64,000 nt of DNA. Origin: Octopus vulgaris. Taxonomy: Eukaryota. The stretch is from the NCBI GenBank assembly GCA_951406725.2, contig OX597823.1, forward strand, positions 64,356,001-64,420,000, read 5' to 3'. Below the pieces are notes generated by a model. It ran no database searches. It saw nothing but the letters and a program-made list of their open reading frames with translations, and was not told where the DNA came from. The position numbers were made by a program, and so were the translations under genes. Shown piece by piece: positions 2,055 through 45,146 of this stretch; positions within the stretch are counted from its first letter, which is position 1; the number at the start of each line of letters is the position of its first letter.

Positions 2055-3399
2055 ATATTATATCTTTTTAAAGCTATTGTATTTTGATGTTCTTTATTAT
2101 ATAAAAGAAACACAGATAAGAATATTTTGATGGCATATATTTTAGCATTTTCCATGATATGTCTTTTAATGATTCTGGAGACTTGGGAAACATATTCATT
2201 AATTTCTTTTAGAAATTCTTTTATAATTAATGAATTCTATCACCAGAAACTGATTTTCATCACGTAGCATTTGCGAGGAGAAATTCACCAAGAGAAATTC
2301 TCCAGCAAAATTGCAAACGTAGCCACTACATACTGGGCCATTCCTTGCTGTTTGTCAAATTGTTTCTTATACACCCACACATAGAGACAGACACAGATGT
2401 ACATATGTGCATATGTATGTATGTACGTACGCACATATGTATATATGTATGTATCAGTGGTGCTTACTGTGATGAATAGTGATATCACACATTATTAGAG
2501 ATTGCAACACAGAGACATAGAGTTCAATTAAGCTAAGACAGTAATTATTTATTTATCTGCTTAATTGAGTTATTATTGTCTCTTTCCATACCAACTACTT
2601 AAATTTGTTTCTCTCTCTCTCTGTTTTCTTTTATTCGGAGGTCTTGTGCTCTTACAGAAGTTGCCTACAATGCAGCATTTGTACTCTATGTCGCTTATTT
2701 GCAGTATTTCATTCAAAGTCACTGCTCTTCTTTCTTCTCTCAGTTTCCATTTCATCTTCCTTCTTCTACTTCATGACAAGGCGCCGCAAGCTACGAAGAC
2801 ACATGCTGGTCTGTTTTGACGCTGTTTGTCAGCTTATTTCTCCATGTATCTAGCATCTTGCAGTTATCTGTGATAGATGATAATATCACAGATTATTATG
2901 GCTAGCAACAAAGAAGCATGAAATTAAATTCAGCTAAGATTATAATTATTTATATATCTAATTAAACTAATTGTGCTATTCTGTCAAACAAGCATGCATA
3001 ATTAGTAGTAACGAGGGTGACCACCCAGCTGCCATCACTGCTATTTTGATAAATATGTCCAGATGCTGTTACTCTAATTGCACCCAGTTACTCTGTTGGT
3101 GCATAATAGTATACGTCTATGCGATACTTGTGTAGTCCTGACTAGAGTGTCTTGAGATGTGATCTTCAACAGAAATGAAGGCAACCCGACTAGGATAGCA
3201 GTAACTCTGAATGGATTATCTGCATGGATGAGGCATAAAGCAACTTATGAAGGGGTACTGTAACTTTCAATAAAAACTAATACTATGTAAAGAGGAGACT
3301 TTAGACCTCACAGATCATTTAGAGTTAGTGATATTATAGAATACACTCATCATAACTCTATTCATCATTGTTTTGATATCCTCTTTTCCATTCTTCTTG

Positions 3400-3706
3400 T
3401 GGAGACACATGGCCTTATGGTTAGAGCAGCGGACTCGCGGTCAGGGGATTGTGGTTTCGAATCTCAGACCGGGCAATGTGTGTGTTTATGAGCGAAACAC
3501 CTAATTTCCACATGGCTCTGGCAGAAAGTAATGGCAAACTTCTGCTCACTCCTTCACCACAACTTTTTCTCACTCTTTCCTCCTGCATCTTGCCGCTCAC
3601 CTGCGATGGACCGGCGTCCCGTCCAGGTGGGGAACCTATACACCACGGAAACCGGGAAACCGGCCCTTATGAGCCAGAAATGGCTTGAAAAGGAACAAAC
3701 AACAAC
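3400..3706 (+). mobile_element. tRNA-derived SINE, family C (V-domain-like core)
   Basis: Head tggccttatggttagagc...gtttcgaatctc, core cctgcgatggaccggcgtcccgtccagg, tail aacaaacaacaac. Other copies at 22700, 36331 and 42683. Confidence 0.8.
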
Positions 3707-3908
3707 ATGCTTCTTGGATGGGTTGGATAATGGTTATTGAAGCACATTTTTTTGTATGGCCAGTTGCCATTCATTTTACCTGCCCTTACCTGTTTCCAAG
3801 TAAGGAAATATTTCTCCATGTCCAGAAGGTTTTTTTACTGAATATTGGGAATGACTGACATTTATTTACAACAATCACATGATGTCAAGACAACACGCCA
3901 CAAGCACG

Positions 3909-3955
<47 letters not shown>

Positions 3956-4311
3956 ACACACACACACGCACATTTATGTATATACAAAATGCACCTTTCA
4001 TATTTCTTTACTGCCCACAAGTAAAAGAGTAAATGTATAACATTTACTCTTTTACTTGTTTCAGTCATTTGACTGTGGCCATGCTGGAGCACCGCCTTTA
4101 GTCAACCAAATCAACCCCAGGACTTATTCTTTGTAAGCCTAGTACTTATTCTATTGGTCTCTTCTGCCAAACTGCTAAGTTATGGGGATGTAAACACATC
4201 AGCATCGGTTGTCAACCAATGTTGGGGTGGGGACAAACACAGACATATATACACGCATACATACATACATACATATACATACATACATACATACATACAT
4301 ACATACATACA

Positions 4312-4345
<34 letters not shown>

Positions 4346-4909
4346 CAACAAGCTTCTTTCAGTTTCTGTCTACCAAATCTGGCAATGGTTCTACAGCTGG
4401 ATGCCCTTCCTAACACCAACCACTCATTCCCTTTTATGTTCAGTTTGTAGACCAGGACAGAAATTGCTGGATAGTGTCCATAGTCTCAGTTGGTCGTGCT
4501 TAGGAATCCAGATGGAATGTGTAATGACAATCACTTCTGACAGGCCCCTATGGAGGCAGTACCTAAGGATTCTATCTCCACAACCATCCCAGGAATAGTG
4601 GGTGGCAAAAATGGATGGAGTTTATTATTAGTACAAGTGGGACTACAAACCCATATAAACAATCATCCACTGGAACTTAAATTCAATGCTTTAACCATTC
4701 TACCATTCTGGTATTACATTTCAAAATCTAAATTTTACAGCAGAAATCCATTTAAAATTAACAAAATGGTAAATAATATGTTGTTTCTGAATTTTTTTTT
4801 TTTTAAATTTCATTTTATCATAACAGATTTCTTGAAAAGAAATTGTAAAACAGTTAAATTAATTCATTTTTCAGTGTTGTATATTATAAAAAATATTTCT
4901 TTATGTGTA

Positions 4910-11371: not shown

Positions 11372-12309
11372 TATTAATAAATATATTTCTCAACATGCAT
11401 ATTTATGGGTGGGGAAATTATATCATTATATATAAATTTATTAATTAAATCAGAAATTAATTGTTAAATCCTCTGGACACTAAACAGAAGGAAATTAAAT
11501 TCATGTCAGTTACTAAATAGATTGCCTTTATATAGGAGAGTGTCTTTCCCAACTACACATGTATACACACACCTCTACACATATATGCTTACATATCCAT
11601 TGACAATCCACATACATGGTACATGCATTCACTAACAAATAGACACAAATTCATAAGTGCACACTCAGACACTGAAAATTTACAATTTTCTTCAAGACTA
11701 CTTCTATTTTGAGCACTTGAATATTGTATATTCTAATAATTGCTTTAATAATAATGATGGACTCTCCTGTCGAAGACAATGTATGAGTGTTCAGTGTTTG
11801 CCGAAGAACCTACAGAAATGATTTGTTTATTATGGTCAAATGTTTGTGCTTCACATTAGCTTACTCATTCCATCAAATCAAGATTGTCTGAAGGAGCACA
11901 CAGTGTACCATATGTCAGGTCTCAAAGTGATCGCAGAACAATGTTTTACTGAAGAACACAACACACCACCCGGTCTAGGAACTGAAACCATGATCTCACA
12001 ATCATGAATGCAACACCGTAACCAGTAAGGTCATGTGACCTCTTGTATAATAATCCTTTCTACTAAAGGCACAAGGCCTGAAATTTTGGGGGAGGGGAAC
12101 CAGTTGATTACATCGACCTCAGTCTTTTACTGGTACCTAATTTGTCAACCCTGAAAGGATGAAAGGCAAAGTTGACCTGAGTGGAATTTGAACTCAGAGT
12201 GTGCAGACAGACGAAATGCTACTAAACACTTTGCCTGGCATGCTAACGATATTGCCTGCTCGCTCCCTTGCCCTCGTGAATAATTATAATGATGACAATG
12301 TTAATAATA

Positions 12310-13200
12310 TATACAAGAAATTGAAAATGAATGAAACTGAAAATAGGTGGGTAAAGAAAAGAATGCATGGTCAATTTCATAGGGATGTTGAAGATAAGAC
12401 AGACAGAGAAAAAAGATGGATGGGGATGACTAAAAGTAATTTAAAACCGGAAATGGAGACTCTAATCTGTGCTGCCCAAGAGCAAGTACTAGGAACAAAC
12501 TACATAAAATACAGAGTAGTCAACACATCAGAAAGTGATAAGTGCAGAATCTGTGAACAAAATGGTGAAACTTTATGGCATATTACCAGGCAATGTACAC
12601 CACTAGCCCAGAAGGAATATAAGAGATGCCCCGACAATATAGCCAGGCTTGTCCATAGGACACTTTACAACAAGTATGGACTTGACAGAGGAAAAAATTG
12701 GTACGACCACAAACCTGAAGGCATCGTCAAAAATGGAAATGCAAAGATCCTATGGTATTTTATGATTCAGTGCAACCATGAGATAGAGAATAGGAAGCTG
12801 GACATAGTCTTAATTGAGAAAGAAAATAAACTATGCTGGATCATAGATATAGCATGCCCAGCTGACAACATGGCATGTGATAAGGAAGAAAGAAAAGTTG
12901 TAAGATATGACAGGTTAGCTTGGGAAGTTAAGCAGTTGTGGTCGATGAAAAAGGTAGCAGTAATGCCAATAATTGTCAGAGCCCTGGGAACAGTGAACAA
13001 AAATCTCGAGATTTAATTGGAACAAATAGGGGCTGCAATAAGGGTGGAGCACTTGCAGAAAATGGCACTGCTTGGAACCACTTGAATACTCCGAAGGTGC
13101 TCGAAAAATAAGAGGTGTTACCTTAGTTCACTGGTAGTGAACAGCTGACACCGTAGTACGTCTTCAGCATTAGAAGCTGTGCAAAGGCAATAATAATAAT
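12310..13200 (+). mobile_element. 5'-truncated R4/Dong-clade non-LTR retrotransposon (CCHC zinc knuckle plus restriction-like endonuclease), pseudogenised
   Basis: ORF 12201-13016 contains MHGQF, AAQEQ, CRIC-x8-H-x4-C, RKLDIV..IIDIACP..K..RY and PIIVRALGT. LQKMALLGT follows the stop. The element ends in a (TAA)n tail at about 13190. The ORF's first codons come from an upstream SINE B. Confidence 0.88.
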
Positions 13201-36012: not shown

Positions 36013-36077
36013 CATAAATATACATATATACATCCATGTATGTGTGTGTGTGTGTATACATATATATAAACATATAC

Positions 36078-36221
36078 TTTATTAATAAAGCTGCAAAGAT
36101 ATCATGGAAACTGTTACTCAGAGTTTCACGTTCCTGTTCATCAGACAAAACTGTCTGACAAACAGGAACATGAAACTCTGAGTAACAGTTTTTGTGATGT
36201 TTTTGCAGCTTTATTAATAAA
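36078..36221. repeat. Palindrome with 70-bp arms and a 4-nt loop, made of two back-to-back hammerhead motifs
   Basis: Arms 36078-36147 and 36152-36221, with a few mismatches. Confidence 0.9.
36110..36147 (-). ncRNA. Minimal type I hammerhead ribozyme motif with intact core
   Basis: tgt CTGATGA ac-aggaac-gt GAAA ctc-t-gag TA aca. Confidence 0.7.
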
Positions 36222-36619
36222 TCATATTACTCTACCTCTGGTGTTTGAGTACTATTTTGTTCAACCTTGTTTCACATTTATGTGCTTACTCTGGTATATA
36301 TACATATACATATACATACATACATACATGTGGAGGCGCAATGGCCCAGTGGTTAGGGCAGTGGACTCGCAGTTGTGTGTTTATTGAGTGCAAACACCTA
36401 AAAGCTCCCTGAGGCTCCAGCAGGGGTTGGTGGCGACCCCTGTTGTACTCTTTTGCCTCAAATTTCTTTCACTCTCTCTTCCTGTTTCTCAAGTAACGCT
36501 GTGATGGACTGGCATCCCATCCAGCTGAGGGGAATACATACGCCACAGAAACCAGGAAACCAGGCCCATGAGCCTGGCTAGGCTTGAAAAGGGTGCATAA
36601 ATAATAAATAAACATACAT

Positions 36620-36678
<59 letters not shown>

Positions 36679-37890
36679 ATCCAAACATGAAAACACAAAG
36701 AGAAAACATAACGCGAAGACGTGGAACAAATATAGTATTATTGGACGCTCAGGAAGGAAGGGAAGAAGGAGGGTCCAACATTTCGAGCGGAGCTCTTCGT
36801 CAGAAACATAGGAAAAGGAAAGATCCAGTGAAGGGAAGACGGAGAAAAAAAAAAAAGAATAAGAAAAAGTATATATACATTACGAGATTGAGCAACTGAG
36901 CACCTGCATAAAACTGTTTCTCAGGTAGTATGGTCATTAACCAAAGAACACACTCGTTGCCGTTTAGCTTTTATTCAGCCTTGATCCACTAAATGTCTGA
37001 TGAATGACATTCAAATTGTGGCTATTCCAATGTGTTTGTATGACTGGTATTCAATATCCTTTATTTTTGTAGGAGAATAAGGTGTCTATTGGGGAAGATT
37101 TAGCTTCTGTTTCCAGCATGTCAAACAATTGCCTACCAGTTTCCCCAATGCCTTTATCAGATTGAGCTATTGAGCAACTATATAAAGGGCATTGTTTTTA
37201 AGTTGGTATGAATATACTGTATGTAGAAGCATTAAAACAGGAAGATAAATACTGAACTTAGAAAACTGGAATGTTGTCAGATAAAATACTTTGTGTATTT
37301 AGTTATGGGTCTTTACATTTTGAGTTCAAATCATGCTGAGGGTGTTTTTTTGTTGTTTTTGTTTTAGCTCTATATTCTTGCTCAGGAGTCAAGTAATGAA
37401 GTTGATATGATTGACTGTTCAATCCCACTTTGAAATTTGCGATGTGGTACAACAACAACAACAACACCATTGTCATCATTATCATCATCATTTTAAGATC
37501 CTCATTTCTATGCTTGCATATGTTGAACAGAATTAGTTGAGGTGGATTTTTTTTATGGCTAGATGCTCTTCCTGTTGCCAACCCTTACCTGTTTCCAAGT
37601 AAGGTAATATCACAGAATTTTGGGAGCAAAGGGTAGCAATTCCATTCTGTCAACACTTGTTTACAGCTATCACAGGATGTCAAATAGTAATACATTCACA
37701 CACGCACACACATAAAACAAACAAACACACACACACACACATGCACGCACACACATATGCACACACACACACACACACACACACAAAAGAAACAAACACA
37801 CAAACATACACACACATGTGCTAAACACACTTATAGACAAAAACGCATATACACTTATACACAACTTCATATATACATATATATACATAC

Positions 37891-44648: not shown

Positions 44649-44675
44649 GTGTGTGTGATTGTGTATAGAAGAATA

Positions 44676-45109
44676 TATTAATAAAAAGAATTCCAACTTT
44701 GTCTGATTTTCACGTTTTATTTACAATCTTATAATGATATATTATAAGATAATATATTATAATTGAATAAAATAAAATGAAATAGTAGAATGTTAAATAT
44801 TCATTCTGATTGAACTAGTACTTTCATGCATTGAATTCTGCAATCTTCGGGTTCATGTAGTAGTGTTGACAGTCATGCTTCACAATTTTTGACAGTCAAA
44901 AATTGTGAAGCATGACTGTCAACACTACTACATGAACCCGAAGATTGCAGAATTCAATGCATGAAAGTACTAGTTCAATCAGAATGAATATTTAACATTC
45001 TACTATTTCATTTTATTTTATTCAATTATAATATATTATCTTATAATATATCATTATAAGATTGTAAATAAAACGTGAAAATCAGACAAAGTTGGAATTC
45101 TTTTTATTA

Positions 45110-45112
<3 letters not shown>
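44676..45112. repeat. Perfect 437-bp palindrome (218-bp arms, 1-nt centre at 44894)
   Basis: ...cacaatttttgac A gtcaaaaattgtg...; the arms were compared by eye with no mismatch seen. Confidence 0.93.
44933..44977 (+). ncRNA. Minimal type I hammerhead motif with CCGAAGA variant core (mirror copy at 44811-44855, minus strand)
   Basis: tgaac CCGAAGA t-tgca-gaattcaa-tgca-t GAAA gtac TA gttca. Confidence 0.62.

Positions 45113-45146
<34 letters not shown>

What the first reader, a model, noticed from the sequence alone, without database searches (positions are those of the whole stretch)
36078..36221. 144-bp palindrome consisting of two back-to-back minimal hammerheads
Seen: the minus arm reads tgt-CTGATGA-ac..gt-GAAA-ctctgag-TA-aca (intact core, short stem I). 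The plus arm reads aaaactgt-CTGACAA-ac..at-GAAA-ctctgag-TA-acagtttt (8-bp stem I, G8A core change). The inversion point lies inside stem I. The arms differ at several positions, so this is not a read foldback artefact. Established: a ctc-t-gag stem III with a 1-nt loop is the type reported to need dimerisation for cleavage.
Basis: partly seen in the sequence, partly recalled or inferred. Interest (0 to 1): 0.72.

Follow-up and report, generated by a model that had tools for sequence, protein, structure and literature searches.

The report
Decayed head-to-head Penelope retrotransposon stub
The palindrome is real, but it is one worn copy among more than a thousand head-to-head stubs of a common Penelope-type jumping gene; its two hammerhead motifs are likely dead here, and the more informative point is that young relatives likely record how such stubs are made.

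Summary
The palindrome is real (62 of 70 positions pair) and each arm has a minimal type I hammerhead layout. It is the core of a ~220-bp insertion (36077-36295) in a TA-type repeat: an inverted arm, a forward arm and a ~72-nt tail on one side only. At least 1,358 such palindromes exist genome-wide. Walking upstream gave the parent: a Hydra-clade Penelope-like retrotransposon with an intact 710-aa RT/GIY-YIG frame in young tandem copies. The window copy belongs to an older subfamily whose core was CCGACGA (U4C). Its 'intact' CTGATGA is likely CpG decay, and stem II is damaged in both arms. The hammerheads lie on opposite strands, so they cannot form a dimer in one RNA, and a read-through RNA is predicted to fold as one -95 to -99 kcal/mol hairpin. 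In young copies, ends pile up at a putative start site 17 nt upstream of the core. About 300 palindromes share one joint at a self-complementary CTAG, which fits two cDNAs joined end to end. Cleavage is untested. This scan has noted this kind, and apparently this family, before on other DNA.

The parts
36077..36295 (.). Whole insertion: inverted pseudo-LTR stub + forward pseudo-LTR stub + tail of a Hydra-clade Penelope-like element
   Evidence: Same ends in aligned copies; continuous homology to ORF-bearing copies
36077..36147 (-). Inverted arm without tail; outer end at the AATAAAG motif, inner end 3 nt upstream of C3
   Evidence: outer end at the same site in 45 of 55 young inverted arms
36111..36147 (-). 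Hammerhead layout: core CTGATGA 36144-36138, stem II 2 of 3 bp, GAAA, stem III ACTC-T-GAGT, predicted cut between 36115 and 36114, stem I 3 bp + G-U
   Evidence: activity untested
36145..36147 (.). Inversion joint: 3-nt overlap (ACA) shared by both arms
   Evidence: forward arm starts at -10, inverted at -3, overlap 3; same joint in L008
36145..36222 (+). Forward arm
36147..36192 (+). Hammerhead layout: 8-bp stem I, core CTGACAA 36155-36161 (G8A), stem II 1 of 3 bp, stem III, predicted cut between 36184 and 36185
   Evidence: all 4 differences from the family majority lie at CpG sites
36223..36295 (+). ~72-nt tail, present on one side only; in full-length copies it is the 5' untranslated stretch that leads to the ORF start ~65 nt further on
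36040..36076 (.). Left flank, decayed (TG)n/(TA)n target repeat
36296..36330 (.). Right flank, decayed (TA)n/(TACA)n target repeat

Best explanation
The palindrome is a decayed, non-coding stub of a Hydra-clade Penelope-like retrotransposon, with likely dead hammerheads, and was likely made when the element's enzyme cut a TA repeat and copied the hammerhead-bearing front end of uncut element RNA twice, once from each DNA end. Shown: the family anatomy, the parent ORF, the TA-type targets, two fixed outer ends 67-72 nt apart, variable inner ends and CpG decay. Inferred: the GIY-YIG domain nicks both strands; each 3' end primes reverse transcription inside the RNA, one at the tail end (+139 from C3) and one at AATAAAG (about +67 to +72); both cDNAs stop at or shortly before the RNA 5' end (about -17); and they anneal through a few complementary bases and are filled in. 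The hammerhead matters, if at all, in tandem full-length copies, where same-strand motifs 3.35-3.43 kb apart could pair through the palindromic stem III. At this locus it is a passenger that has mutated freely.
For: 1,358 palindromes match a tight two-arm pattern, control 0; 6,590 near-exact arms. First-look candidates fall from 1,525 (tail) to 389 (-70 nt), 114 (-1.1 kb) and 65 (ORF start). Homology runs through a ~1.2-kb 3' UTR into RT/EN frames. Young copies: unbroken 710-711-aa frames in 4 of 5 fetched loci, with RWK, DKT, LYRDDG, no cysteines between the GIY and YIG equivalents, CxxC and CxH, and 2-3 same-strand hammerheads per locus. The published Hydra-2_aMil hammerhead has the same stem I (ctgt/acag) and stem III (actc-n-gagt) with a different but paired stem II; Penelope-13_HM is listed with hammerheads on both strands from an inverted copy. 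Old subfamily, 115 arms from 77 of 82 loci: core sites change 27% at CpG against 3.6% elsewhere, stems 29% against 4.8%. Of 90 young copies picked by the tail, 55 have an adjacent inverted arm, 70 end at +139 or +142, and 25 forward 5' ends lie at -19 to -11 against 2 between -20 and -100 (p=4e-12); 77 of 82 located tail ends are followed by a TA-type repeat. PAc protein cuts and extends both strands, starts at two internal sites and uses uncut RNA (PMC11167929).
Against: No compensatory double change within the family: the stem changes between old and young masters (position 11.1 T to G to A; one stem I position T to G to A) break pairs rather than keep them. The unit is 3.35-3.43 kb, longer than the '<3 kb' given for Hydra, and young copies have F for the second linker cysteine. 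No tree was built. Arms of one old insertion are barely closer to each other (13.2%) than to other insertions (14.7%), though the marker at column 61 agrees in 35 of 37 pairs. The window copy is one of 2 of 26 loci with TG at U4 in both arms (2.8 expected by chance), so a CTGA template for this copy is not excluded. The start site at -17 rests on cDNA ends and a recalled initiator consensus, not on RNA data.
Confidence: 0.88

Rival explanations
1. Same element, but the inverted arm comes from one cDNA folding back and priming on itself (hairpin intermediate), not from two cDNAs.
For: Joints often overlap by 1-6 nt. At the CTAG joint the overrun base appears on one side only, never both (0 of 100 listed), which a single priming end also explains.
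Against: The overrun occurs on either arm (33 untailed, 15 tailed, of 100 listed). A hairpin centred on CTAG has almost no stem. The inverted arm's outer end is fixed and sits in TA repeat like the tail end (35 of 40 located), as expected of a second priming site.
Confidence: 0.2
2. The locus is a working bidirectional ribozyme pair, or a host regulatory element.
For: The minus arm has all canonical core letters and the GUA triplet; stems II of 2 bp occur in active hammerheads (PMC3088659 section 8).
Against: Opposite strands; the hammerhead-shaped fold scores +3.8 against -95.4 kcal/mol for the hairpin and stem I pair probability is 0; plus arm has G8A and no stem II; changes follow CpG decay.
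Confidence: 0.04
3. It is an independent non-autonomous unit (MITE-like foldback or retrozyme) that spreads as a fixed palindrome.
For: About 300 young copies share one joint; short copies far outnumber long ones.
Against: Joints differ in 23 of 25 old copies; the tail is on one side only; a continuous length ladder leads into the ORF; the shared joint comes in three variants across several subfamily types; no short tandem array of the stub was seen in the loci fetched.
Confidence: 0.07

Closest known systems
Hydra clade of C-terminal EN+ Penelope-like elements (Craig et al. 2021, PMC8557442), especially Hydra-2_aMil and Penelope-13_HM
   Same: RWK, DKT, no CCHH, CxCX5C linker in older copies, CxxC and CxH, (TA)n targets; hammerhead with ctgt/acag stem I and actc-n-gagt stem III; inverted truncated copy giving hammerheads on both strands
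   Different: Longer unit (3.35-3.43 kb, ~1.2-kb 3' UTR); tail ~72 nt against the 30-40 nt given for PLEs; older masters carry U4C. It is a different family from Hydra-1_Obim, whose listed hammerhead differs.
Minimal type I hammerheads of metazoan PLE pseudo-LTRs (Cervera and de la Pena 2014, PMC4209133)
   Same: Short palindromic helix III needing a dimer; pairs of motifs 100-700 bp apart on opposite strands were already noted and tied to truncated PLEs
   Different: Their helix II is 6-8 bp with G10.1-C11.1; here it is 3 bp (old) or 2 bp plus a mismatch (young) with a GNRA loop
PAc, Poseidon element of Anolis (Frangieh et al. 2024, PMC11167929)
   Same: Two internal RT start sites bounding a tail, AT-rich targets, both strands primed, uncut RNA used
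   Different: Other clade; there the hammerhead overlaps the start codon, here the ATG lies 205 nt downstream of C3; the parts read do not deal with the inner joint
U4C hammerhead variant of a viroid (cited in Perreault et al. 2011, PMC3088659)
   Same: Same core change, reported to lower activity in vitro yet suffice in vivo
   Different: There it may be offset by tertiary contacts; none are evident in this minimal motif

Membership tests
Minimal type I hammerhead | Core CUGANGA ... GAAA | tested here: inconclusive
   Met in the minus arm, not in the plus arm (G8A); old family majority is CCGACGA (20 of 95 arms exact; U4 is C in 66, T in 29 of 98); young majority CTGATGA (47 of 67)
Minimal type I hammerhead | A15.1-U16.1 pair and NUH triplet | tested here: met
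   GUA in both arms
Minimal type I hammerhead | Paired stems I and II | tested here: inconclusive
   Minus arm 3 bp + G-U and 2 bp; plus arm 8 bp and 1 bp; neither monomer folds so as MFE
Minimal type I hammerhead | Second same-strand copy to form the dimeric helix III | tested here: not met
   Window arms are on opposite strands; met in tandem full-length copies L289-L293; the stem III self-duplex is predicted at -7.9 and -7.4 kcal/mol
Minimal type I hammerhead | Self-cleavage after NUH | not testable with these tools
   No assay; only 2 of 69 nearby young 5' ends fall at the predicted cut, p=0.49
Minimal type I hammerhead | Rfam hammerhead model hit | tested here: not met
   0 hits in the window at gathering score
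EN+ Penelope-like element insertion | Inverted 5'-truncated copy next to a forward copy, tail on one end | tested here: met
   described in PMC8557442
EN+ Penelope-like element insertion | Parent single ORF with RT and C-terminal GIY-YIG, hammerhead in the pseudo-LTR, tandem copies | tested here: met
   domains assigned by motifs and by eye against the paper's Hydra alignment; Pfam gave no hit above cut-off
Hydra clade | RWK and DKT motifs | tested here: met
   Residues 37 and 113 of the young frames
Hydra clade | No CCHH in EN; CxxC and CxH around the conserved E and N | tested here: met
Hydra clade | CxCX5C linker | tested here: inconclusive
   Present in older copies L127 and L146; CxF in all 5 young full frames printed
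Hydra clade | (TA)n target | tested here: met
   77 of 82 located tail ends
Hydra clade | Placement in the Hydra clade on an RT tree | not tested
   Reference sequences were seen only in a supplement; no tree was built
Animal non-LTR retrozyme | Short non-coding tandem repeats, each with a type I hammerhead | tested here: not met
   No tandem array at the locus; arms are inverted; definition from bioRxiv 10.64898/2026.07.22.740005

The most novel reading that the evidence does not exclude
The family is a genomic record of how Penelope-like elements insert. Two cDNAs, primed from both ends of a cut TA repeat at two fixed internal sites, run off the capped 5' end of an uncut RNA 17 nt upstream of the hammerhead and anneal through a 4-bp CTAG as an unrepaired heteroduplex (GCTAGC 52, GCTAGA 33, TCTAGC 15, TCTAGA 0 of 100). 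The active lineage also spread for a long time with a U4C core and then returned to the canonical U4, so full hammerhead activity would be dispensable or even tuned down for spreading.
Probability: 0.45. Interest if true: 0.55.

Novelty: new member of a known kind. Interest (0 to 1): 0.24.

Why it matters
The window copy itself is ordinary: a dead stub among thousands. The family matters modestly. How Penelope-like elements make their inverted ends is named as an open question (PMC8557442), and this family offers young, near-identical copies with unbroken ORFs, fixed outer ends and a countable joint. These give sharp predictions for an in vitro reaction. It is also a caution for ribozyme searches: CpG decay of a CCGACGA core can produce a textbook CTGATGA in dead copies.

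Tried and rejected
Rfam scan: 0 hits. Pfam on parent fragments and on two database relatives: nothing above cut-off. A Neptune-type PLE frame next to one copy (L030) was first taken as the possible parent and rejected, since its 3' end lacks this pseudo-LTR. My first recall of the parent as Nematis was dropped after reading the Hydra section. A DNA search with the young arm returned nothing, probably because its words are too common, so pattern counts were used. RNA evidence: no RNA holder listed on record; contigs of 4 runs laid on the window did not span the locus and cannot show ends or strand. A peak of copy ends at the predicted cut site was looked for and not found. A CTGA master within the old subfamily was looked for through arm concordance and not found. 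Lunse et al. on dimeric PLE hammerheads is not held and is known here only as a citation. Rows dropped: duplicate or overlapping loci L024, L031, L061, L083; 11 of 66 'inverted' hits were TA-repeat or distal matches. The binomial used 26 by mistake; 25 is right. Whether the stub lies in a host gene was not determined: five window ORFs gave no convincing Pfam hit.

Full report
Observation. The inverted repeat is present: arms 36072-36147 and 36152-36227, 87% complementary, 4-nt spacer. It folds at -99.2 kcal/mol against -23.7 for shuffles. Both hammerhead layouts read as stated. Rfam finds nothing in the window. The surroundings are microsatellite-rich animal DNA in a 2.8-Gb genome. Earlier scan notes call the host an octopus; I did not test that.

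It is a repeat. A DNA search gave 3,244 first-look candidates, of which 40 were scored. Aligned copies share one asymmetric anatomy: TA-type repeat, an inverted arm starting at AATAAAG, a variable joint, a forward arm, a tail ending in ACTCTGG, TA-type repeat. In the window this spans 36077-36295. A tight two-arm pattern matches 1,358 loci, control 0; whole near-exact arms number 6,590. These are lower bounds, since decayed copies fail exact patterns. The window's joint is shared by 1 other of 25 similar copies. Of 29 old copies picked by the tail alone, the script found an adjacent inverted arm in 16.

The parent. Walking upstream, first-look candidates fall from 1,525 to 389, 114 and 65. Homology runs through a ~1.2-kb AT-rich 3' UTR into broken RT and endonuclease frames, 51% identical to an unnamed 713-aa protein. 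In longer copies the order is hammerhead, AATAAA, tail, ~65 nt, ATG, so the tail is the start of the next tandem unit. A young subfamily has unbroken 710-711-aa frames in 4 of 5 fetched loci, with same-strand hammerheads 3.35-3.43 kb apart. RWK, DKT, absence of CCHH, CxxC, CxH and (TA)n targets match the Hydra clade as defined in section 11 of PMC8557442. The CxCX5C linker is present in older copies and altered in young ones. No tree was built. That paper's supplement lists the coral Hydra-2_aMil hammerhead with the same stems I and III and a different but paired stem II, and Penelope-13_HM with hammerheads on both strands from an inverted copy. Opposite-strand pairs of minimal hammerheads were also noted in 2014 (PMC4209133).

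The hammerheads at this locus. Among 115 old arms (77 of 82 loci) the majority core is CCGACGA, with a 3-bp stem II and GGAA loop. U4 is C in 66 and T in 29 of 98 arms, and G5 is A in 18 of 102, the two-sided mark of an ancestral CpG. Core CpG sites change at 27%, stem CpG sites at 29%, and non-CpG core and stem sites at 3.6% and 4.8%, so I see no protection of the core in scattered copies. Only 5 of 92 ungapped arms have both a CTGANGA core and a full stem II. All 4 changes in the plus arm and all 3 in the minus-arm hammerhead lie at CpG sites. TG in both arms occurs in 2 of 26 loci, 2.8 expected by chance. The canonical minus core is therefore likely a product of decay, though a CTGA template for this one copy is not excluded. 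U4C is a known natural variant with reduced activity (PMC3088659); a whole-word search for it found only that paper. The two motifs cannot pair in one RNA, and a transcript through the locus is predicted to form a single long hairpin with stem I probability 0.

The master lineage. Old majority and young arms differ at 6 of 46 hammerhead positions: U4, N7, one loop II base (GNRA kept), 11.1, the stem III loop base and one stem I base. The other core letters are unchanged, while 100 nt upstream differ by 24 mismatches and 16 gap columns. That is some constraint, but no compensatory change, and two of the six changes break pairs. Intermediate types CCGACGA, CCGATGA and CTGATGA all occur as low-divergence copies. 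The simplest order is U4C in older masters and U4 in the youngest; this order is inferred from divergence, not from a tree.

How the stubs are likely made. I took the first 90 of 4,497 exact young-type tails. The forward 3' end is at +139 or +142 from C3 in 70; 12 apparent stops at 99-105 are likely artefacts of ungapped extension. Of these 90, 55 have an adjacent inverted arm, 45 of them ending at one site. Forward 5' ends: 25 at -19 to -11, 13 at -8 to -3, 29 inside or after the hammerhead, 2 between -20 and -100, 21 further upstream. Inverted arms stop at -18 to -13 in 22 of 55. The boundary coincides with CCATTCT, A at -17, which fits a recalled YYANWYY initiator consensus and is kept in 27 of 28 old copies; such sites occur 11 times in 840 nt, so this is a hint only. 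Penelope of Drosophila has an internal promoter in its pseudo-LTR (PMC2377424 passages). There is no peak at the predicted cut (2 of 69), so the template was mostly uncut, as shown for PAc. A joint at the self-complementary CTAG occurs 303 times with a tail (a locus tailed on both sides counts twice). By hand count of the 100 listed: GCTAGC 52, GCTAGA 33, TCTAGC 15, TCTAGA 0 (Fisher p=0.002). The A variants are what a cDNA running past CTAG would leave. Either arm can carry it, never both, which fits two annealed cDNA ends whose strands segregate, and also fits one end priming at a time. The old subfamily lacks this CTAG, and its joints scatter over short overlaps like the window's ACA. Two searches found no paper describing such a joint; the library lacks most subscription papers.

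What I read. PMC8557442: passages, section 11, supplement rows. PMC4209133 and PMC11167929: parts 1-2 of 4. PMC3088659: passages and section 8. PMC6765202, PMC2377424, PMC13282606: passages. bioRxiv 10.64898/2026.07.22.740005: part 1 of 5; its supplements are closed. Lunse et al.: not held. Earlier scan notes, seen only after my analysis, describe the same kind in this genome and apparently this family; they are not independent support.

Verdict. Real, correctly recognised as hammerhead-shaped, but an ordinary decayed stub of a known kind of element. Interest 0.24, owed mostly to what the young subfamily shows about insertion.

Noticed in passing
window ~44660-45115: A second, nearly perfect back-to-back hammerhead palindrome in (TA)n, from another family: core CCGAAGA, longer stem II, GTAC in stem III, motifs at +44933 and -44855. 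One arm of the same family appears in L030.
   Followed up: no
window ~36770-36805, minus strand: Another hammerhead-like motif (CTGACGA ... CGAAA) in a different common repeat; similar motifs occur in L042, L048 and L136.
   Followed up: no
L030 (G000:C21:4906000-4915751), reverse-strand 2160-3377 and plus-strand 3504-4688: Two 5'-truncated Neptune-type Penelope frames (RT, cysteine linker, GIY-YIG); the first starts directly after a (TA)n repeat.
   Followed up: partly
L146 and neighbours, G000:C17:22363369-22387979: Tandem copies of the younger subfamily in which the ORF end joins the next unit's tail directly, so the 3' UTR and hammerhead are missing from that junction.
   Followed up: no
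G000:C3:41495036-41495219: A CTAG-joint palindrome with a tail on both sides, an exception to the one-tail rule.
   Followed up: no
L289 (G000:C12:43653300-43661800): Tandem array with three canonical-core hammerheads and two unbroken 710-aa frames differing by one residue: a likely recent source copy.
   Followed up: partly
window 36331-36600: Very high-copy SINE-like repeat right of the stub; it draws far more contig depth than the stub.
   Followed up: no
window 12192-13016: 274-aa stop-free frame with a weak zf-RVT match (E=0.004, below cut-off), probably a LINE fragment.
   Followed up: no
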